Part shown: positions 29,221-39,164 of the stretch, one piece after another
How positions within the stretch are numbered: position 1 is the stretch's first letter
How the letters are laid out: each line of letters opens with the position of its first letter
From: an uncultured Verrucomicrobiae bacterium
GTDB taxonomy: Bacteria; Verrucomicrobiota; Verrucomicrobiia; Chthoniobacterales; UBA10450
Assembly: GCA_963815455.1 (NCBI GenBank)
Contig: CAWFGO010000001.1
Coordinates: 704,001-768,000 of the forward strand
Reading direction: 5' to 3'
DNA length: 64,000 nucleotides
Notes under the pieces: model-generated
Seen by the model: the letters and a program-made list of their open reading frames with translations, nothing else
What the model was told of the DNA's origin: nothing
Databases searched by the model: none
Made by a program: the position numbers and the translations under genes

Positions 29221-32200
29221 CTAAGGCAACCCGTGGCCGATGTTGGATTTGACTGAGGAGGCGTCGGTGCCGTTTATGGCGCCGTTGGCGTTCACGTCGG
29301 AGCGGAAGTTTGCGCTGGTGACCGCTTGGCCAATTCGCCCCTTGGTCTGCGACACATCGGTGGAATTGACCGTTGCATTGTTGTTGGTGTCGCCCAGTAG
29401 CCGGCTCATCGGTATCACTACGTTGGCCAAAGGCTCATCCGCGGTGTTCACTCCGTTGAGCGTGACGTTGATGGTCTGCACATCGGCTACGTTGGTGAGC
29501 GGGATCGTGACCATGTTTCCGGACACGGTTACCATCCCGCCATTGCTGACGCCACCGGTCCCGATGGTTGCTGTGCCCAACGTGACCTGCGCCTGCGGGC
29601 TTCCCGTCACGGTCACATTGCCTGAGAACGTGACCACCATCGTGTAATCGTTGGTCCCGCCGCCGCTACGGCATTCGATTCCGGGCGTGCCGGTAAGCGG
29701 CAGATCGATGTCGAAGTCGCCTGCGCCGCCGTGGGTCTTTCGTGATACCGCGCCAGTCACGCTGGCCGGGCACGGCTCGTAGATGGCGGCGCTGTCCACT
29801 CGCCACCCAGCGTGCGAGACGGAGTTGTCCGAACACATCCGCCAGCGCAGCGTCACCGGCTGGCCAACAGCGGCACCCGGAAGGGTCACCGTAGAGGTTT
29901 CGAACCCACCAGAACCCCCATTGGAGATTCCGCTCCAGCCGCCGGTGGTGGTGTGGATAGGCGCCGTTACGGTGCACGGATTGGCGAACCCGGTGCTGAT
30001 CGACGTGTGGTTATAGCCCCCGCTAACAAAGCTGCCTCCTGCAGCGATGATGTCCTGATAGGCGCCGCCGTTAATGCTGATCTCTAAGACCCCTACGTCG
30101 TAGGCAATGGCGGCGGACGACTGTTCCAAGTCGTAGTTCTGCCTGAAAGTCAGCTGCGCCGAAGCCGAGTTGACCGTAAGCGTTGGCGTGTCCAGCCGGT
30201 TATCCAGGAGATTAGCCGGATCTTGCGAGAAAACGGCGTTGGGCAGGCTATCCGCAATCGGCGCCGGAGTTCCTGAATTGGAGGTAACCCATAATGGGAA
30301 TCCACCTGAATTTACCCCCTGCGTGGCCACCCATCCCGTGGGCAGCATCGGCGGAGTGACTCCGTCAAAGTTCTGCACGAATGTCGGACAGAAATTACCG
30401 GTGTAATTGTAATTCCCCGAGAAGGCGAGGTTCGGGTTTCCAAACGAATCGGTGATTGCGCCGGCGCCAATGCTCGCTGTCACCATGCCCGAGAAAATAC
30501 TCGTGAAGTTCAACGTAAACCGCGCGGTCGTGTTCCCGTTGATCAGGGTAACCATTGTCACGGTGCCGGGAATGCCGCTCAGCGTCAGATCGCTCGTTTG
30601 CACCGAGGCCGGATCGACAGCTTCGTTGAAGTTCACGTCGTACATCGACGACCCCGGCCCCGAGAAGTTGCCGCCCACCGGCGGATTAGTCGTAGTCACC
30701 TGAAGGGCCAGAGCATCGTACCGGAACGTGCACGTGAAATCCATCACCGCGTTACCCATTGTGTCGTTAAAAGCGCCCGCGGCAATGTGCATCGTGTTGA
30801 GGCCCTGCACCACCGGCGTGCTGCTGAAGTGGAACGTAATCTGGGTATTGCCTGCGCCGAAGGTAGGCGCCAAGTTTGACGGAGTTCCGTTCACTGTGAA
30901 ATCACCTGCCTGAACGGTCCTCGTATTCACCGCATCGTTCAGGTTGATGACGAAGTCCACAGGTTGCGTGGCGATCACGCTGTTGCAAGCCGGCACGTTG
31001 CTCGACACGCCAAAACCCAAGCCGGGGAGGGTGAGTGTATTCGTGTATAGGTCAAACGCGTGCAACGTGCCATCCGCGTTTGTGCCATCGCAGTTCGCGT
31101 TGTCTGCCCAGACCGTGTAGAGCTTGCCCGCGTGCGCGGACTGACCAACATAGTCGCCAAAGTCGATACCGTTGCTCGACGCCGCCGCGTTCGAGAAGCC
31201 GCCGCTCAAGCGCGTGTTCGGCGCCCAGGTGGCGCCGCCATCGGTGCTGAAGGTGCCATAATATTCGGCATCGTCATTGGCAATGCTATTCGTCCCGCCG
31301 GAACCGGGCACGCCATTGTCGTTGCGACAATCATGAAAGCCCACCGCCACCGTCCCGGTTGTACGGTCCAATGCGAGATATGGCAAAAACTGGCTTCGGA
31401 TCGGCGACGCCGGGTCGTCGTTCACGCGCACCGGCGCGGTCCAGGTCGCGCCGTCATCAGTCGATGTGCGCATCTCAATATCCGTGTCGTTGTTCTCGTT
31501 TACAGTCTCCTCCGTGTACACCAGGTAGATGCGATTGTTGAACGGCCCACCGGTCGTGTCCCATACCAGTCCGGCCTCGGCATCAATGGAGCGTCCGTTC
31601 TGTGCCGGGATAAAGTCGAAGCCGCCCACGTTGGTCGTCGTGACGGTGATGCGCGCGCCGAACCCCCCCGCTCCCAGGCCATCCGCATCCACATTGGCGT
31701 AGATCGTCGCTGGACCCTGCCCACCAGTCGGGCTTTGATAAGTTACGATAACCTTGCCGCCGTTCGCACCGGGTCCAACCGCGATACCGCCAAAACTGCC
31801 GCTGGCTGACGGGATTGACTGCTGGGCGCCGAATGGCCCCCAAGTACCCAGACCCGTCACTGGCGCCCCGCGCGCGACCATACTTCCGCTCGAGTTCCAG
31901 TCGACCCACACGCTGCCGTTACCCACAGCGATCGAGGGCTGATCCACGCTGCCCGTGCCCGCAGTTACCGGTGCGCTGAATGTTGCGCCGCCATCGGTAC
32001 TCAAGATGACGTTGATTTGGTTGACGCTGTTGTTGATGTAGACAAGAAACAAGTTCCCGAACGTGTCCCACGCTGCCTGCCCGTCGCAGCAGGCCACACC
32101 CGTGGCTACGGTGCCACGCGTCCAGGTCGCACCGCCGTTAGTCGAGTACGCGCGGAAAATGCTGTTCTCGCTGGCCAGGTTCGAAAAGGCCACGAGGTTG

Positions 32201-32481
32201 TTTGGATTCGTCGGGTTGACGACAACGTGACTCTCAGACTCGTTGCCCGCCCGGACGCTGACGTTTACCACCGGCACCAGGCAGGCCGCCGGCTCCGCCG
32301 GTTTTAACAGTTCGGATACTATCGGGAGCCGGTTCTTGGGTTTAATGCATTTGCGTGTGCCCTCGGGCACATTCTTGTCCTGGTTCGCCGGCAGCATCAC
32401 TTGGGCGTCCAACGTGCACTTGCCAGGCGTGAGGAATGTGAAAACCGCGGAAAGCGCAACGAGGGCGAGGCGTTTTTTCAT
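29221..32481 (-). CDS. large secreted protein: sialidase/BNR propeller, two Ig-like domains, beta-sandwich, SRKTHG domain and dockerin-like tail
   Basis: Signal peptide; four STxxGATW/F Asp-boxes; GDY motif; duplicated Ca-loop motifs GDTNNNATVNSTD and SDVNANGAINGTD. Confidence 0.88.
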   Translation of the reverse strand: MKKRLALVALSAVFTFLTPGKCTLDAQVMLPANQDKNVPEGTRKCIKPKNRLPIVSELLKPAEPAACLVPVVNVSVRAGNESESHVVVNPTNPNNLVAFSNLASENSIFRAYSTNGGATWTRGTVATGVACCDGQAAWDTFGNLFLVYINNSVNQINVILSTDGGATFSAPVTAGTGSVDQPSIAVGNGSVWVDWNSSGSMVARGAPVTGLGTWGPFGAQQSIPSASGSFGGIAVGPGANGGKVIVTYQSPTGGQGPATIYANVDADGLGAGGFGARITVTTTNVGGFDFIPAQNGRSIDAEAGLVWDTTGGPFNNRIYLVYTEETVNENNDTDIEMRTSTDDGATWTAPVRVNDDPASPIRSQFLPYLALDRTTGTVAVGFHDCRNDNGVPGSGGTNSIANDDAEYYGTFSTDGGATWAPNTRLSGGFSNAAASSNGIDFGDYVGQSAHAGKLYTVWADNANCDGTNADGTLHAFDLYTNTLTLPGLGFGVSSNVPACNSVIATQPVDFVINLNDAVNTRTVQAGDFTVNGTPSNLAPTFGAGNTQITFHFSSTPVVQGLNTMHIAAGAFNDTMGNAVMDFTCTFRYDALALQVTTTNPPVGGNFSGPGSSMYDVNFNEAVDPASVQTSDLTLSGIPGTVTMVTLINGNTTARFTLNFTSIFSGMVTASIGAGAITDSFGNPNLAFSGNYNYTGNFCPTFVQNFDGVTPPMLPTGWVATQGVNSGGFPLWVTSNSGTPAPIADSLPNAVFSQDPANLLDNRLDTPTLTVNSASAQLTFRQNYDLEQSSAAIAYDVGVLEISINGGAYQDIIAAGGSFVSGGYNHTSISTGFANPCTVTAPIHTTTGGWSGISNGGSGGFETSTVTLPGAAVGQPVTLRWRMCSDNSVSHAGWRVDSAAIYEPCPASVTGAVSRKTHGGAGDFDIDLPLTGTPGIECRSGGGTNDYTMVVTFSGNVTVTGSPQAQVTLGTATIGTGGVSNGGMVTVSGNMVTIPLTNVADVQTINVTLNGVNTADEPLANVVIPMSRLLGDTNNNATVNSTDVSQTKGRIGQAVTSANFRSDVNANGAINGTDASSVKSNIGHGLP

Positions 32482-33105: not shown

Positions 33106-33510
33106 GTGAGAATCATACTTTCGACCCTAGCAGCACTGGGCCTTCTGGCTGTTCCCGCCACGGCGCCGGCGCAAGTGACCAGTGGAGAACAGCCTCCCCA
33201 TTCGGCGCACGCACCCTCAAAAGCGGATGCCGCATCACTCCAGAAAAAAGCCGCCGATGCCCAAGCCCGGATTCAGTCCAATCAGAACGACCGCGACCAG
33301 CTAATGAAAGCGGTCAAGACGAACGAGGTGGGGTTGGCCAAACAAGTCCTCCTCAGAAACGGATTCACCCCTGTCGATTTGGAAAATGCGAAGATTACTC
33401 TACGGACGGGCGGCGGAAAGGGAGGCAAAGACGAAATAGAAATCACTGCCACCTGTTGTGATCCAAAGGAAATCACAATCCAGCGATCCCTGGAGTACTT
33501 CACCAAATAG
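33106..33510 (+). CDS. secreted hypothetical protein
   Basis: Signal peptide ending APA-Q; helical N-half; CC motif near C-terminus; start GTG 33106 or TTG 33094. Confidence 0.75.
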   Translation: MRIILSTLAALGLLAVPATAPAQVTSGEQPPHSAHAPSKADAASLQKKAADAQARIQSNQNDRDQLMKAVKTNEVGLAKQVLLRNGFTPVDLENAKITLRTGGGKGGKDEIEITATCCDPKEITIQRSLEYFTK

Positions 33511-33578
33511 CCGTCACGGAAAATCCGGCGCACCTTGTCACTCCCGGTGGAGCGAGCCGCCTCCCTGTGCCGGGCGCA

Positions 33579-33640
33579 GGCCGGCGGCAGAGCGCCGCGG
33601 CTACAACAATTTCTTCGTGTCCTTCGTGTCCTTCGTGGTT
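33579..33640. repeat. GTAG-type REP half (family F4) plus 3x CTTCGTG 9-mers upstream of thrS
   Basis: Reverse complement gttgtagccgcggcg matches 50431-50443; ttcttcgtgtccttcgtgtccttcgtggtt. Confidence 0.75.
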
Positions 33641-33654
33641 AATTGCTCCCGTTT

Positions 33655-35751
33655 ATGCAGGAAGACCGCAAAACTCTAGACCAACGCGCGACGATGACGG
33701 ACTTGGAACGTCTTCGCCATTCGGCATCGCATGTTCTCGCCACCGCGATTCTAAAAATCTGGCCGGAGGCCCAATTCGCCGCCGGTCCGCCGGTCGAGAA
33801 CGGTTTTTATTACGATGTCGATCTTCCCCACCGGATTTCGCCTGACGACTTCGAAAAGATCGAGGCCGAGATGAAGAAGGAAATCAAGGCCAATCATCCG
33901 TTCGAAAAGATCGAAGTCTCCCGCGACGAAGCTTTGGCCATGGCGAAACGCGGTGAACTTGGTGCCCTTGGTGCGAGGTCCGAGCCGAGCAAGTTCAAGA
34001 TCGACATCATCGAGAACATCCCGGCGGATGAGAAAATCTCGCTCTATCGCAACGGCGATTTCCTCGATCTCTGCGCCGGCCCCCACGTGATGCGCACCGG
34101 AAACGTCGGCGCGTTCAAACTGACGCACGTCGCGAGCGCCTATTACAAAGGCGACGAAAAGAATCCGCAGCTCCAACGCATTTACGGCACCGCTTTCAAA
34201 AACAAGACGCAGCTCGACGAATATTTCGCCATGCTCGAGGAAGCGAAGAAACGCGACCATCGCAAGCTCGGCAAAGAACTGGAGATTTACATCATCGACG
34301 ACGACGTCGGCCCCGGGTTGCCGCTGTGGCTTCCGCGCGGCGCCGCCATGATCGAAGAACTGGAGAGGCTCGCCAAGGAAACCGAGTTCGCCGCCGGCTA
34401 TCTACGCGTGCGCACGCCGCATATCGCGCGCGAAAGTCTCTATCTAAAAGAGCGGACATCTTCCTTACTACTAGGGAGTCAATGTTTCCGCCGATGCCGG
34501 TCGAGAAAACACGAAGAATATCGCATTGGGCCGCTTGTTTTGAGCGAGGGAGAAGCAAAGGGCGATTTGGACACTCACGAGAAGGCGGTAAAGGCATTCA
34601 TGCCTGATTTGGATACGCCCGGACATCCGCGAGTCGATGAGCAAAATGACTCAGCGAGGAAATTGATCAGATTATTGAGGAGCGAATGTTCGAAAATGGG
34701 GCGACAGAAGTTAACAAAGCCTTTAACAGAGGTGCCATTGATAATTGGTTATCAATGGTAATGCTGACCCAAATAGCGCCGATTGAAGATCGCTATTTTC
34801 TCAAAGCGATGAACTGTCCGCATCATCACAAGTTGTTTGCGGCGGTTCCTCGGAGTTATCGCGATCTGCCGCTGCGGCTGGCAGAGTACGGGACCTGTTA
34901 TCGCTACGAGCAGAGCGGTGAATTGATCGGACTCATGCGGGTGCGCTCGATGCAGATGAACGACGCGCACATTTATATGCACGCCGGAGCAGTTCGAAAC
35001 CGAGTTCAACGCCGTGAACGAGATGTATCTGAAATATTTCAAGCTCTTCGGGATCGAGAAATATCTGATGCGTTTCTCGACCCACGATCCGGCCAAGCTC
35101 GGACAAAAATTTGTCGATGAACCGGAGCTTTGGAAACAAACCGAAGAAATGACCCGCAACGTTCTCAAGAATTCCGGGATCAATTACGTCGAGGTGCCAA
35201 ACGAAGCGGCGTTTTACGGACCGAAGATCGACGTGCAAGCCTGGAGCGCGATCGGGCGGGAATTTTCCATCGCCACCAACCAGGTCGATTTCGCGCAGCC
35301 GCGCCGGTTCGAGCTCGTTTACAAAGACAAGGACAACACCGAGAAAACGCCGCTCTGCATCCATCGCGCCCCGCTCGGCACCCACGAACGATTCATCGGC
35401 TTCCTGATCGAACATTACGCCGGCAATTTCCCGCTTTGGTTATCCCCGGAACAGGTCCGCATCCTCACCATCGGCGACGACGCGAAGCTGATCGATTATT
35501 CGATGTCGATCTTAAATGAGTTGCGCGCACATCAAGTCCGCGCCGAGATCGACAAGAGCACCGATCAAATCAACGGCAAAATCCAGCGCGCCGAACAAAT
35601 GAAAGTCCACACCATGTTCGTGATCGGAAAACGCGACCTCGAGGCAGACGCCGTCAGCGTCCGCGTTCACGGCAAGGGAAATCTCGGCGCCAAACCGCGC
35701 GCGGAAGCGATCGAGGACATTTTGCTGTCGATCAAGGAACGACGCAGTTAG
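33655..35751 (+). CDS. thrS: threonyl-tRNA synthetase (no TGS domain; ~98-codon insertion; about 5 apparent frameshifts)
   Basis: [63 protein letters not shown] across ORFs 33643, 34326, 34686, 35014. Confidence 0.96.
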
Positions 35752-35759
35752 ACTGGGGA

Positions 35760-38700
35760 ATGCTTCGGGCCTGGCGCTCAGTTAGCGTCACGATTGTTGC
35801 GCTCTGGACATCCGCGACATTTCTCTCCTCCGCAGACAAGCCGGGAGCGTATACCAAACTCCCTGCAGACCAGGCCGTGGCCCAGTTGTTCGACAGTCCT
35901 GCACCGCCGGTCGATTGGCGGGAATATCTTCGCCAGCATCCGCTAAAGCGGAATATTCCGGCCAAGAACGCTCCTCTTGACGACGTTCTGGAATACTGGC
36001 GTTACGCCGCGGACGAACCCCCGCCCGACGCAGACACGCAACAACGATTGCTTGAAGTATGCGAGCGCGACCCGGACGAATTGCCCGACTTTGCGCGTTT
36101 CTTTGGCAAAGCGTCGATCGACACTCAGGAACGATTGAAGCGAATTTACGACCGAACCTCGTCGAAACACACGGCAAAAGCTGAGGATCTCGCGCGAAAT
36201 TTTCATGACTGGCTGATGAAACACACGCGTTACTTTCGCGAAGACTTTATCAAGAGAGTCTTTCCGGCCGAAGACGGATTGCGAATTGCGGCGACAGAGA
36301 ACGAACTAGAAGCCTTCATCAACCTCGACCGCGAATCAGCGCGCAGCCATTTGATTGAGCAAGCAAAAAGCGCTGACGAATCGCTGCGTATCTCCGCCCT
36401 TTCATTGCTCTTCGAATATTTTGGCACCGATGCCGACGCGGAGTCATGGCGAAAGGAACTTTGCGCGATGGCCACGGATCGGGATAAGCCTACGGATCTT
36501 CTAGAAAAGGCGATTTTCGGTGCAATGAAACGTCCCTGGCCCGGCCGGGAAAAATGGTTCACGAGACTATTCGAAGATCGGCAATTGCTTCATCCGGACA
36601 AGCCCGCGGACATGAATGCGCTGGCCAAGTGTGTCGCGCGTGAGCCCGATCGATTGATTGCATTGGTTACGCCTTTGGTGGTCTCAGCCAACGTGACCAT
36701 TCGCGACAACGCGGTCCAGTGCCTGGTCCAATTCGACAATGCAGAAAAGGCCCGGGCTGATGCACTGCGTCCATTGTTACCGTGGCTGACAAATAAACGT
36801 TGGGCTGACGACGTCGACGGTTTTGAGCGTTCCTCTTTGTTCCGCGCGTTGACTTTGACAAATCTGCCGGAGTGCGCGCCGCTTCTCCCGAAGTGCATAG
36901 AAAGCGAAACCGGCGCGCAGCTCGAGTATGCGCTGGATGCGTCGGTGCATTATCGTGTGAGCGATGCAATTGCTCCCATGCGACGAAGAATAAAGCACGA
37001 GCGGAATGATGAATATCGCACCGCGTTAATGTCGGCGCTGTTTCACCTGAATGGCTTAAAACCGAGCGAGATCTCAGATTGCCTGAGGCCATATGTCGAG
37101 AAGGTCGCGGACAAGCTCGAAGAATGGGGTGGCTCGGATTATTATTCATGGTCGGCGGTGGATAAGCATGGAGTGGATTGGCATGCGGAAGTCGGGTACA
37201 AAATCGCGTCGAGCGTCACGGGAATTGAGGCCGCGGCGAAAGTCGTGCTCGATCTGGCCCATCAAGAGGAGGCGAAAAACCCGATTGCTTCCGAACATCT
37301 TTACTGCCTGGCGTTGAAATGGCCGACATCGATCAGAAGGCGCGTACTCACGGAGCGATTGCAAGGCGGCGCATTTTCTCCCGCCTGGATTGGAACAGTG
37401 ATTGAGCTAAGGCACGACCTTAAGCAGACACTACACGAAGTAGCCGATCTCAAAGGTTCTGGACAGGGAATTCAAGCGGCGCTGACCGAAGATCAAGGTT
37501 CGATCGAAACGGTATTGAAAGGCACCGATAGCGCGGCGCAAACTGCGGTGTTCGCGTGCGCCCGTCTGGCGCGTGTTTCGATTCCCTTGGATCTTGCGGT
37601 TCGCTTTCTCGATTCGAGCGATCAGCACCTGATGCAAGCGGCCGATAAATATTTTGCGGAAAGCGATTCGCCGAATGCCCGGGCCGAAGCTAAGAAGCGT
37701 GCAGTCAATCGGGCAAGAGTTCTGGGGACGCAACTGAACTTTTCGGCGTTTGCAATGGATCATGGCGCCATCTCGCGGACGGAAGCAGAGCTGAGGGCGT
37801 TTTTTCAGCGATCTGATCCACCACGCGAGATATTTGCTTTGCTCAGTGAAGGCAATTTTGGCAATGACGGGCAACGGGCATTGTTTGTTTACAACAAGCG
37901 GAACGTACTACGCTGCGCGGATGGCAACGGGCGCATGCGCGAACGAGAAGTCTCGCCTGCGGAACTCGATGTTCTTCGCAGTTGGATCGTGAAGAACGAT
38001 GTCGGCAATCTGCCGCCGTATGACGAAGGCACAATGGATGGCATCCAATTGCAATACGTTCACATCACTCCGGATGGAGGAGAGCGCGTCTTCATGAACA
38101 ATCCACCAGGCGGACCCATGGGGGCCGCGAAAGTTCAACCCGGAATTACCGAGCGCCGGCCTGATCCGATCGTTTACTCAGAACTGACCCGCCGGATTAT
38201 GAAGTTGAACGAAGTTCCAATGGCTGTCGTCTATCCAACGCTCAAAAAGCTTGAAGGATACCGCGTTGTTCACGCGAAGGAACAAGGCGAAATTGCATCG
38301 TTGCGGTTTCGCGAAGGCGAACTGTTCGCCGGAGTGACCATTTCGTACGACAAGCCGATTGAGTGGTGCGTCGTCGAAAACGATCATTTGTCGAGGAAGT
38401 TTCGAACGGAACCGCCCAACCCGTTGAAGCGACAGTTGTGGCCTGATTACAATGACTGGGACGACCGCGCTGCGAACGTTGAAGAAGGTCCGTATGCAGG
38501 AAAGCTCCTTTGGCCGGGAACCAGACAAAAAGATAACGTAGATGGCCTTTGGGCTTCGGGTCGGACTGGCCAACCAGACCTCATTGCGCGCGGAATATTC
38601 TACCGCCCGCTAGTTTGCCCTGCCGGTGACTGGATCGTGGTTGCCAAAACTCAAGAAGGCGAGATGTGGAATGCTCCTAATGGGGTTGTGCGAATTCACC

Positions 38701-39164
38701 TTCCTGCAAAGCGCATGTTTCCTGTCGATCTTCCGCCAGCTGATAACTTCGACGCTGTAGCCTGGATTGCCGCGCATAAGCGAGTTTTGCTTTATCGACA
38801 ACGGGATTTGGAAAATTGGACTACTGGACCCGAGAAAGCGGAATTTCATCTTCTCGATCCGGCGACTGGAGCGCACGAAAAAGTTGAGGGCGAGATGCGT
38901 CCTTTCTTCGACGCGGGCAGCCATGAGCTCCAACCAACCGGCAAGCCGAATGAATTTTGGGCCGCGCTGCACTCGAGCATTGTCGATCCTAAATTGCACA
39001 CGACGACCATCGGTCGGTTCGACAGCTACAATTTTCGATTTTCGCCGGTGCTCAGTTTTCCCGATATCGAATTCGACAGCGCGAGCCTTTACGTCGATGG
39101 ACCCGGCCGACAGATCTGGATCGCCGTCAACGGCGATTTGCTCCGCGTTTCGTTGCCAAACTAA
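35760..39164 (+). CDS. large exported hypothetical protein (HEAT-like solenoid plus C-terminal propeller-like region)
   Basis: 1134-aa open frame, signal-like N-terminus, helical repeats then Trp/Gly-rich beta region. Confidence 0.8.
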   Translation: MLRAWRSVSVTIVALWTSATFLSSADKPGAYTKLPADQAVAQLFDSPAPPVDWREYLRQHPLKRNIPAKNAPLDDVLEYWRYAADEPPPDADTQQRLLEVCERDPDELPDFARFFGKASIDTQERLKRIYDRTSSKHTAKAEDLARNFHDWLMKHTRYFREDFIKRVFPAEDGLRIAATENELEAFINLDRESARSHLIEQAKSADESLRISALSLLFEYFGTDADAESWRKELCAMATDRDKPTDLLEKAIFGAMKRPWPGREKWFTRLFEDRQLLHPDKPADMNALAKCVAREPDRLIALVTPLVVSANVTIRDNAVQCLVQFDNAEKARADALRPLLPWLTNKRWADDVDGFERSSLFRALTLTNLPECAPLLPKCIESETGAQLEYALDASVHYRVSDAIAPMRRRIKHERNDEYRTALMSALFHLNGLKPSEISDCLRPYVEKVADKLEEWGGSDYYSWSAVDKHGVDWHAEVGYKIASSVTGIEAAAKVVLDLAHQEEAKNPIASEHLYCLALKWPTSIRRRVLTERLQGGAFSPAWIGTVIELRHDLKQTLHEVADLKGSGQGIQAALTEDQGSIETVLKGTDSAAQTAVFACARLARVSIPLDLAVRFLDSSDQHLMQAADKYFAESDSPNARAEAKKRAVNRARVLGTQLNFSAFAMDHGAISRTEAELRAFFQRSDPPREIFALLSEGNFGNDGQRALFVYNKRNVLRCADGNGRMREREVSPAELDVLRSWIVKNDVGNLPPYDEGTMDGIQLQYVHITPDGGERVFMNNPPGGPMGAAKVQPGITERRPDPIVYSELTRRIMKLNEVPMAVVYPTLKKLEGYRVVHAKEQGEIASLRFREGELFAGVTISYDKPIEWCVVENDHLSRKFRTEPPNPLKRQLWPDYNDWDDRAANVEEGPYAGKLLWPGTRQKDNVDGLWASGRTGQPDLIARGIFYRPLVCPAGDWIVVAKTQEGEMWNAPNGVVRIHLPAKRMFPVDLPPADNFDAVAWIAAHKRVLLYRQRDLENWTTGPEKAEFHLLDPATGAHEKVEGEMRPFFDAGSHELQPTGKPNEFWAALHSSIVDPKLHTTTIGRFDSYNFRFSPVLSFPDIEFDSASLYVDGPGRQIWIAVNGDLLRVSLPN

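What the first reader, a model, noticed from the sequence alone, without database searches (positions are those of the whole stretch)
34497..34790. 98-codon low-GC insertion in the catalytic domain of ThrRS: candidate swappable cassette in an essential gene
Seen: SMFPPM ends at 34496 and [12 protein letters not shown] starts at 34791, in the same frame, with 294 nt between. My hand count of 34501-34790 gives about 47% GC, against about 60% in the two lines counted upstream. With compensating single-base corrections it reads as protein ([30 protein letters not shown]...[39 protein letters not shown]...). Known: this segment is normally a short beta-hairpin of about 5-8 residues just before the zinc-binding MNCP. 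It lacks intein termini and group I P7 motifs. Inference: a foreign domain displayed on a surface loop of an essential enzyme, possibly hypervariable between strains (phage/toxin sensing, immunity or a selfish passenger).
Basis: partly seen in the sequence, partly recalled or inferred. Interest (0 to 1): 0.8.

Follow-up and report, generated by a model that had tools for sequence, protein, structure and literature searches.

The report
Swappable helical cassette in essential ThrRS
The essential enzyme that loads threonine onto tRNA carries an extra protein module in these soil bacteria, and relatives hold dozens of unrelated modules at the very same spot and trade them, as if an internal housekeeping enzyme were varying its surface to evade an unknown enemy.

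Summary
Real. The 294-nt, 47%-GC block (about 97 codons once three extra bases are discounted) fills a ThrRS dimer-interface hairpin that has 6 residues in 92 of 92 non-verrucomicrobial genes. Its homologues are intact at this site in relatives. Across 168 family genomes the site holds 104 inserts of 46-125 aa, apparently helical (57 classes), 32 mid-length, often palindromic peptides, 24 short loops and 8 RAYT-type transposase domains. Insert class is near-random on the flank tree (25 changes against 27.8 shuffled), while genus follows it (14 against 29.8). The 46-125 aa inserts are under purifying selection (omega about 0.15), acidic (48 of 52), low in GC3 (65 of 66), and the two families searched occur only in ThrRS. 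Best reading: a translated cassette exchanged by recombination between conserved flanks, probably kept diverse by a phage or toxin; that purpose is inferred, not shown. The frameshifts look like assembly errors. alaS has a second such site. No paper found in nine searches; this scan noted the same site in other genomes (e1-2305814, e1-2349601).

The parts
33655..35751 (+). thrS, threonine-tRNA ligase, the only copy in the assembly; read in several frames because of six single extra bases
   Evidence: ATG 33655 and TAG 35749-35751; one tblastn locus in G000; breaks mapped
34451..34496 (+). Conserved 5' flank SGHLPYY..SMFPPM; likely upstream crossover arm; its last Met sits on the dimer two-fold axis in the model
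   Evidence: Residues 91-100% conserved at most codons in 142 intact loci; DNA identity 0.91 in the last 15 nt; M280-M280' contact
34497..34790 (+). Variable cassette, family C08: about 97 codons, four predicted helices, 47% GC; holds three apparent extra bases (near 34506, 34621, 34655)
   Evidence: AlphaFold2 of the L009 homologue gives helices 286-310, 317-324, 328-342, 344-365, block pLDDT 56-81
34791..34832 (+). Conserved 3' flank [14 protein letters not shown] (the Cys as zinc ligand is recalled); likely downstream crossover arm
   Evidence: DNA identity 0.85-0.93 in the first 30 nt
34735..34758 (.). Perfect 10-bp inverted repeat with a 4-nt loop inside the cassette; not kept in homologues, probably incidental
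   Evidence: homologous DNA differs here
34450..34980 (+). Stretch holding all six +1 frame breaks, three in the flanks and three in the cassette; most likely consensus errors
   Evidence: valS and alaS of the same assembly are also broken; 20 of 23 broken inserts have broken flanks against 8 of 128 intact ones

Best explanation
The block is one allele of a hypervariable protein cassette inside the single essential thrS of this Chthoniobacterales family. SHOWN: the site holds dozens of unrelated alleles. The 46-125 aa alleles are acidic and under purifying selection, and they are uncoupled from the phylogeny of their own gene. MODELLED: the cassette folds as a small helical bundle at the tip of the dimer-interface hairpin, and cassette residues lie in the subunit interface. 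INFERRED, about 85%: alleles replace one another by homologous recombination, crossing over in or near the nearly invariant flanks (SGHLPYY..SMFPPM and [13 protein letters not shown]). No nuclease, repeat or att site is needed. REP-type palindromes and RAYT transposases have exploited the same tolerant loop. INFERRED, about 50%: the diversity is kept up by negative frequency-dependent selection. The loop lies beside the acceptor stem of the partner subunit's tRNA, so a changing acidic cap would mask or alter the surface that a phage protein, toxin or other antagonist must bind on the ThrRS-tRNA complex. The frameshifts in this copy are assembly errors.
For: Diversity: 104 inserts of 46-125 aa in 57 classes, 46 of them singletons, among 168 family genomes; 44 classes among the 84 intact ones. 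Outgroup loop fixed at 6 residues in 92 of 92. Uncoupling: 25 class changes on the flank tree against 27.8 +/- 1.6 shuffled (44 rows, 7 classes), while genus on the same rows gives 14 against 29.8 +/- 1.5. The nearest neighbour by flank identity shares the class in 18 of 151. Both directions of swap: G350/G370 have 94% identical flanks and unrelated inserts; P0048/P0091 have 99.1/99.6% flanks and 48% inserts; P0071/P0072 have identical inserts and 93/88% flanks; G010/G079, different genera, have insert pS 0.20 against flank 0.66/0.50. Soil contigs of relatives join 34496 to 34787-34806 across the block in three of four runs, laid at 85% likeness. Selection: omega 0.15 (14 pairs) against 0.08 in flanks. 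Foreign codon use: GC3 0.55 against 0.72, lower in 65 of 66. Shared design: most class lengths 71-97 aa; net negative in 48 of 52 classes against 47% of random windows of long ORFs. Site-specific pools: all 120 listed hits of family C01 carry ThrRS domains, and alaS inserts match thrS inserts only through RAYT. Position: the equivalent loop of yeast MST1 touches the partner tRNA's 5' phosphate and acceptor backbone (PMC4756836 section 12; residue mapping inferred).
Against: No antagonist was identified: 0 of 54 class representatives match PHROGs or PADLOC, and none reaches a Pfam cut-off. No viral contig holds the C08 insert. No codon under positive selection was tested, and alleles are conserved rather than rapidly drifting. 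Cross-genus sharers show no raised flank identity next to the insert. The excess divergence near the site in close pairs is modest (1.28-1.34) and is matched at the far 5' end (1.31). Most cross-genus sharing is synonymously saturated (pS 0.61-0.88), so it is old. Whole-gene transfer also occurs: G079 and G098 fall in another genus's clade, which weakens the G010/G079 example. Within family C01, insert and flank identity still correlate (rho 0.41). 24 of 168 genomes have only a short loop, so the domain is dispensable. Classes may be over-split: cross-class hits exceed reversed decoys, 12 against 0 at 14 bits or more. The charge control includes spurious ORFs. There is no expression evidence.
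Confidence: 0.5

Rival explanations
1. Tolerant loop, neutral sink. The hairpin tip accepts anything that folds. DNA lands there, is kept in frame because thrS is essential, and is reshuffled by background recombination with no benefit.
For: Strongly palindromic alleles (mean folding z -5.5, 14 of 14 below -2) and RAYT domains (Pfam Y1_Tnp in 2 of 4 tested) use the same site. Such repeats also sit in frame in ileS, leuS and alaS of this genome. Intragenic REPs are described as probably neutral loop insertions, most abundant in the verrucomicrobium Opitutus terrae (PMC3733652, passages). Purifying selection could simply protect the folding of the host enzyme.
Against: Passengers should have donors, but two families have none outside ThrRS. 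Lengths and charge are constrained. thrS and alaS keep separate pools. Near-random placement on the tree needs far more exchange at this spot than the flanks show.
Confidence: 0.24
2. Structural accessory with interchangeable folds. The helices cap and stabilise the dimer or tune tRNA docking. Any self-compatible acidic bundle does the job, so alleles turn over without an enemy.
For: In the dimer model of the L009 homologue, cassette residues 307-314, 331-335 and 350-363 lie in the interface with expected error under 8 A. Score 0.89, best of 3 controls 0.09; runs agree in at least 87% of contacts; pLDDT 85; the mark was reached by 20 of 30 solved pairs and 1 of 23 single chains. ThrRS dimers are solved, so the pass shows likeness to them. 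Weak cross-class similarity suggests descent from a few ancestral arms.
Against: A useful structural element should be fixed and inherited. In other families of the order a 30-residue insert is conserved (10 loci), whereas here it is replaced even between 99%-identical enzymes. An acidic surface is a poor tRNA binder. Short-loop alleles persist across genera.
Confidence: 0.18
3. Selfish homing. RAYT (HUH) nucleases nick DNA at this site and drive gene conversion, spreading whichever allele is resistant; the helical alleles are hitch-hikers.
For: 8 of 168 genomes carry a RAYT-type domain in this exact site, and 32 carry mid-length, often palindromic peptides. alaS of G000 and G022 carry the same kind of domain.
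Against: The helical alleles encode no nuclease and are not palindromic (mean z -0.6). There are no flanking repeats or target duplication. Homing should fix one allele, not maintain dozens.
Confidence: 0.05
4. Artefact or dead gene: an assembly chimera, an intron or intein, or a decaying pseudogene.
For: Six frame breaks within 530 nt, while neighbouring ORFs of 1086 and 1134 aa, rpoB, leuS and ileS are intact. The assembly is 90% complete, and no reads of this strain were available.
Against: It is the only thrS. valS and alaS are broken too. Intact homologues hold the same insert family in frame. No Rfam match and no intein termini.
Confidence: 0.03

Closest known systems
Lineage-specific insertion domains of class II aminoacyl-tRNA synthetases (GlyRS insertion domain; the fixed 30-residue ThrRS hairpin insert in other Chthoniobacterales families)
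   Same: A folded module inserted in the catalytic core near the dimer-interface hairpin. Mycobacterial GlyRSs use two different insertion domains (PMC12208437, passages). Ten loci of other families carry a conserved insert at this same site.
   Different: Those are inherited and conserved within a clade. This site has at least 44 unrelated intact alleles in one family and does not follow the gene's tree.
Domain swapping between conserved flanks: target-recognition domains of type I and III restriction-modification genes, FliC central domain, CdiA/Rhs tips, mosaic penA (all recalled; the FliC and penA comparisons also appear in scan notes e1-2305814 and e1-4198289)
   Same: Unrelated variable domains between conserved arms, exchanged across species and kept functional. 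This is what it works like.
   Different: Those are surface antigens, weapons, defence enzymes or drug targets with a known selective agent. Here the host is a cytoplasmic single-copy translation enzyme, and neither the cargo family nor the agent is known.
Intragenic REP/RPE elements and RAYT transposases
   Same: In-frame palindromic inserts in housekeeping genes, documented in Rickettsia and Opitutus terrae (PMC3733652 and PMC3184786, passages). The palindromic and RAYT alleles at this site fit.
   Different: The window's allele and most of the 104 long alleles are not palindromic. The window's allele is single-copy in its genome. An intact RAYT-type domain fused inside a synthetase was not in the passages I read.
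Inteins and group I/II introns in conserved housekeeping motifs (defining features recalled)
   Same: An insertion next to a highly conserved active-site motif, with foreign base composition.
   Different: No splice residues, no RNA family match and no endonuclease; the module appears to be retained and folded.
Small acidic helical immunity proteins and nucleic-acid mimics, such as colicin D immunity protein (recalled)
   Same: Similar size (80-95 aa), helical, net acidic; placed next to tRNA.
   Different: No sequence match in Pfam, PHROGs or PADLOC; no linked toxin was looked for or seen; a resemblance only.

Membership tests
Bacterial ThrRS (class IIa) | tRNA_SAD, class II core and HGTP anticodon-binding domains; ThrRS fold | tested here: met
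   Pfam on the intact homologue L009; VIA Z 47.2, rmsd 1.7, 393 aligned to the E. coli ThrRS catalytic domain 8wih; window gene 68% identical to L009 by tblastn despite the breaks
Intein | N-terminal Cys/Ser/Thr, C-terminal His-Asn, and +1 Cys/Ser/Thr (recalled) | tested here: not met
   Intact homologues begin I/V/M-V-R and end VEDR before Tyr; no Pfam family on the insert
Group I or II intron | Conserved catalytic RNA core | tested here: not met
   No Rfam match at E <= 1 over 33400-35900; in-frame coding under purifying selection in homologues
Intragenic REP/RPE element | Palindromic DNA, multicopy in the genome | tested here: not met
   The window's allele has no other copy in G000; class representatives mean z -0.6. 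Met for the short palindromic alleles of relatives (z -5.5; 3 of 6 tested have 6-29 blast hits in G000)
RAYT / IS200-type transposase fusion | Y1_Tnp (HUH) domain | tested here: not met
   Absent from the window's allele; present in L309 and L207 at the same site and in alaS of G000
IS or integron-type cassette | Terminal repeats, target duplication or attC-like hairpin at the ends | tested here: not met
   No repeat pair at the junctions; insert ends of 26 loci share no DNA motif by eye
Recombination-swapped hypervariable domain | Unrelated alleles between conserved flanks, incongruent with the gene tree | tested here: met
Recombination-swapped hypervariable domain | Co-converted flank tracts marking crossovers | tested here: inconclusive
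   None among cross-genus sharers; visible in single close pairs L246/L251 and L214/L220; average excess 1.3-fold, not unique to the site
Recombination-swapped hypervariable domain | A selective agent that recognises the variable domain | not testable with these tools
   Needs phage or toxin challenge, or pull-down
Immunity or decoy domain | Homology to or binding of a cognate toxin or phage protein | tested here: inconclusive
   No library match in 54 class representatives; the insert was not folded and searched alone

The most novel reading that the evidence does not exclude
Aminoacyl-tRNA synthetases of abundant soil Verrucomicrobia are an unrecognised arms-race surface. Each enzyme carries its own library of exchangeable orphan domains beside the tRNA acceptor stem (acidic helical caps in ThrRS, a different set in AlaRS). 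These act as shields or decoys against phage or toxin proteins that attack the synthetase-tRNA complex, a kind of antigenic variation inside the cytoplasm, with possibly hundreds of alleles (Chao1 about 260 for thrS, rough).
Probability: 0.35. Interest if true: 0.92.

Novelty: new variant of a known kind. Interest (0 to 1): 0.72.

Why it matters
Synthetases are treated as slow, vertically inherited marker genes. Here one loop behaves like an antigenic locus: alleles are conserved as proteins yet placed almost at random on the gene tree. If an antagonist drives this, it points to an unknown class of phage or competitor proteins that target the ThrRS-tRNA complex, and the allele set makes that testable with isogenic swaps. 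Even if neutral, it is a natural library of dozens of orphan helical domains tolerated at the dimer axis, and a warning for phylogenies and assemblies that use thrS or alaS.

Tried and rejected
Reads: no run holds this strain (best share of words 0.18); no RNA holder listed. The four runs laid give almost no cover over the insert, which proves nothing by itself. Single-sequence AlphaFold2 failed (pLDDT 37). The insert was never folded alone, so the fold search only tested the ThrRS core. The ESM Atlas look-up did not run. Viral contigs: 16 pattern matches, none confirmed. Profile of family C08 against 1.84 billion representatives: 2 hits, both repeat-driven partial matches in unrelated proteins. 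Short stand-alone forms of family C01: 4 hits, three ThrRS fragments and one 46-aa piece that starts at the insert. Co-conversion tracts among cross-genus sharers: none. Clustering of frame breaks at the cassette in 31 broken loci, as a sign of strain mixture: not clear. Hairpins as a mobilisation signal in helical alleles: rejected (6 of 51 below z -2). Junction repeats: none. An AU test of C08 monophyly did not run on a FastTree tree and was not repeated. The same-genus genome G001 holds only the 3' end of thrS. Literature: searches listed no description of this site; the library lacks most subscription papers and no supplements were read.

Full report
OBSERVATION. thrS runs 33655-35751 on the + strand and is the only copy in the assembly. 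GC is 47.3% against 56.7% and 54.9% in the flanks, and 0.4% of 294-nt windows are as low. Against the intact relative L009 the gene has six single extra bases, three inside the block, so the real insert is about 97 codons. I read these as consensus errors. valS falls into five open frames and alaS has one break in the same assembly. Among 151 relatives, 20 of 23 broken inserts also have broken flanks, against 8 of 128 intact ones. Against this, rpoB, leuS, ileS and both neighbouring ORFs are intact, and no reads of this strain were found.

THE SITE. All 92 non-verrucomicrobial ones have exactly 6 residues between MFPPM and YYLK; all 24 verrucomicrobial ones have 12-250. In the window's family, 259 of 355 genomes matched. 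I fetched 210 loci. After dropping duplicates, other families, two unpublished genomes and 22 loci lacking one end, 168 genomes remained, 145 with an intact insert. They hold 104 inserts of 46-125 aa, 32 mid-length, often palindromic peptides, 24 short loops and 8 RAYT-type domains. I call the 104 helical from their sequence pattern; only one was modelled. They fall into 57 classes, 44 among the 84 intact ones. Named records place the group in Chthoniobacterales, and one homologue is labelled Candidatus Udaeobacter. The window's allele belongs to class C08, found intact in G009, G017, G101, in 12 proteins and in 3 metagenome loci (these sets overlap), and broken in G021.

UNCOUPLING FROM THE GENE. 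On a FastTree tree of 1700 flank columns (151 rows, insert excluded), genus needs 8 changes against 66.5 shuffled (114 rows). Seven long-insert classes need 25 against 27.8 +/- 1.6 (44 rows; 9% of shuffles as low), while genus on those rows needs 14 against 29.8. The five C08 carriers lie far apart on the tree. The nearest neighbour shares the class in 18 of 151; pairs at 90% or more flank identity share it in 2 of 29. Examples run both ways. G350 and G370 have 94% identical flanks up to the junctions and unrelated inserts. P0048 and P0091 have 99% flanks and 48% inserts; P0071 and P0072 have identical inserts and 93/88% flanks (100 of 120 proteins usable). G010 and G079 have insert pS 0.20 against 0.66 and 0.50. 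In three of four soil metagenomes, contigs of relatives join 34496 to 34787-34806 across the block, the letters between not known. Contrary results: no raised flank identity among 123 cross-genus sharing pairs; only a 1.3-fold excess divergence near the site, equalled at the far 5' end; mostly saturated synonymous sites between genera; whole-gene transfer of G079 and G098; residual linkage in C01, rho 0.41. Exchange is therefore well supported, but its rate and tract length are not fixed.

NATURE OF THE CARGO. Inserts are under purifying selection: omega 0.15 (14 unsaturated pairs) against 0.08 for flanks (94 pairs). GC3 is 0.55 against 0.72, lower in 65 of 66. Class lengths cluster at 71-97 aa. 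48 of 52 classes are net negative, mean -0.056 per residue, against 47% of random 85-aa windows and -0.008 for the ThrRS core (the control includes spurious ORFs). None of 54 class representatives reaches a Pfam cut-off or hits PHROGs or PADLOC. C08 has no credible homologue among 1.84 billion representatives or in viral contigs. For C01, all 120 listed of 247 longer hits carry ThrRS domains, and the 4 short hits look like ThrRS fragments. Cross-class similarity modestly exceeds reversed decoys (119 against 29 at 8 bits, 12 against 0 at 14), so some classes may share ancestors. The long alleles are not palindromic (mean z -0.6, 51 classes); the short repeat-like ones are (z -5.5, 14 of 14).

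STRUCTURE. AlphaFold2 with a 78-row alignment gives mean pLDDT 86.8 and four insert helices between 286 and 365, block pLDDT 56-81. The core matches E. coli ThrRS (Z 47.2, rmsd 1.7, 393 aligned). The dimer model scores 0.89 against a best control of 0.09; runs agree in at least 87% of contacts, pLDDT 85; the mark was reached by 20 of 30 solved pairs and 1 of 23 single chains. As ThrRS dimers are solved, the pass shows likeness to them. The new detail is that M280 meets M280' and that insert residues 307-314, 331-335 and 350-363 are in the interface; that the two caps touch each other is my inference. Query residue 371 aligns to position 121 of the 460-residue MST1 chain, whose numbering ends at 462. 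If the chain ends there, this is Lys123 in the beta4-beta5 loop, which binds the 5' phosphate and acceptor backbone of the tRNA on the other subunit (PMC4756836, passages and section 12).

A SECOND SITE. alaS of this genome has a roughly 224-aa RAYT-type insert. In 30 relatives, 17 could be parsed; they hold 27-216 residues in several unrelated families at that site. These are near-neutral in charge and match thrS inserts only through RAYT. I ran this test after reading scan note e1-4198289. Separate pools per enzyme argue against a generic passenger pool.

MECHANISM. Shown: hypervariability, uncoupling, purifying selection, orphan cargo. Modelled: a helical cap at the dimer axis. Inferred: homologous recombination through the conserved flanks (about 85%), with the DNA uptake route unknown. 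Inferred: maintenance by an antagonist that binds the ThrRS-tRNA surface (about 50%). Rivals are a neutral tolerant loop (0.24), an interchangeable structural cap (0.18), RAYT-driven homing (0.05) and artefact (0.03). That phages can target synthetases (T4 valyl-tRNA synthetase modifier) is recalled; only listed two phage genome papers that contain the term.

KNOWN AND NEW. It works like domain swapping between conserved flanks in restriction-modification, flagellin or polymorphic toxin genes (recalled). It fails the tests for intein, intron, IS, integron cassette and REP. In-frame REPs in genes, including in Verrucomicrobia, are published (PMC3733652 and PMC3184786, passages only), as are alternative insertion domains in GlyRS (PMC12208437, passages). 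Nine searches listed no account of this site; supplements and subscription papers were not seen and could hold one. This scan has noted the same thrS site in other genomes (e1-2305814, e1-2349601) and similar sites in AlaRS, SerRS and TrpRS; those notes are not independent support. Verdict: new variant of a known kind, interest 0.72.

Noticed in passing
G000:C2:124387-125060 (-), locus L334; outside the window: alaS carries an in-frame RAYT-type (Y1_Tnp) domain of about 224 aa with repeat-like ends. In 17 parsed of 30 relatives this site holds 27-216 residues in several unrelated families: a second hypervariable site with its own pool.
   Followed up: partly
L338 (ileS) and L339 (leuS) of G000: Short in-frame repeat-derived peptides: one shared by leuS and ileS, another present twice in ileS. 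leuS also seems to have longer insertions in its editing region.
   Followed up: no
L107, L108, L207, L213, L227, L235, L238, L265, L309, L319: RAYT-type transposase domains of 205-259 aa fused inside ThrRS at the same hairpin, in several genera; all in frame except L319.
   Followed up: partly
window 33544-33608 and 33611-33645: A G+C-rich palindrome and a short tandem repeat just upstream of thrS, with about 11 and 9 partial blast hits elsewhere in the genome; REP-like, possibly in the thrS leader.
   Followed up: partly
L361-L370: Other families of the order carry a different ThrRS subtype with a fixed, conserved 30-residue insert containing a Cys-x-Cys motif at the same site.
   Followed up: no
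L031-L150: The family's ThrRS subtype (SGHLPYY...[10 protein letters not shown]) is shared with Bacteroidota and Patescibacteria-type genomes, which suggests an old transfer of thrS between phyla.
   Followed up: no
L193 (G098) and L204 (G079): thrS flanks of two genomes of genus g8 fall inside the g10 clade: probable whole-gene transfer.
   Followed up: partly
G009, G127, G130, G134, G289: Two matches each to the thrS 3' flank: a second copy or bin contamination; not examined.
   Followed up: no
G000:C3:456471-459046 (-): valS is split over five open frames without a large insert; most likely assembly error.
   Followed up: partly
window 29221-32481 (-) and 35760-39164 (+): Two long intact ORFs near thrS: a 1086-aa protein that looks secreted and repeat-rich, and an 1134-aa protein starting 8 bases after the thrS stop; neither was annotated.
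   Followed up: no
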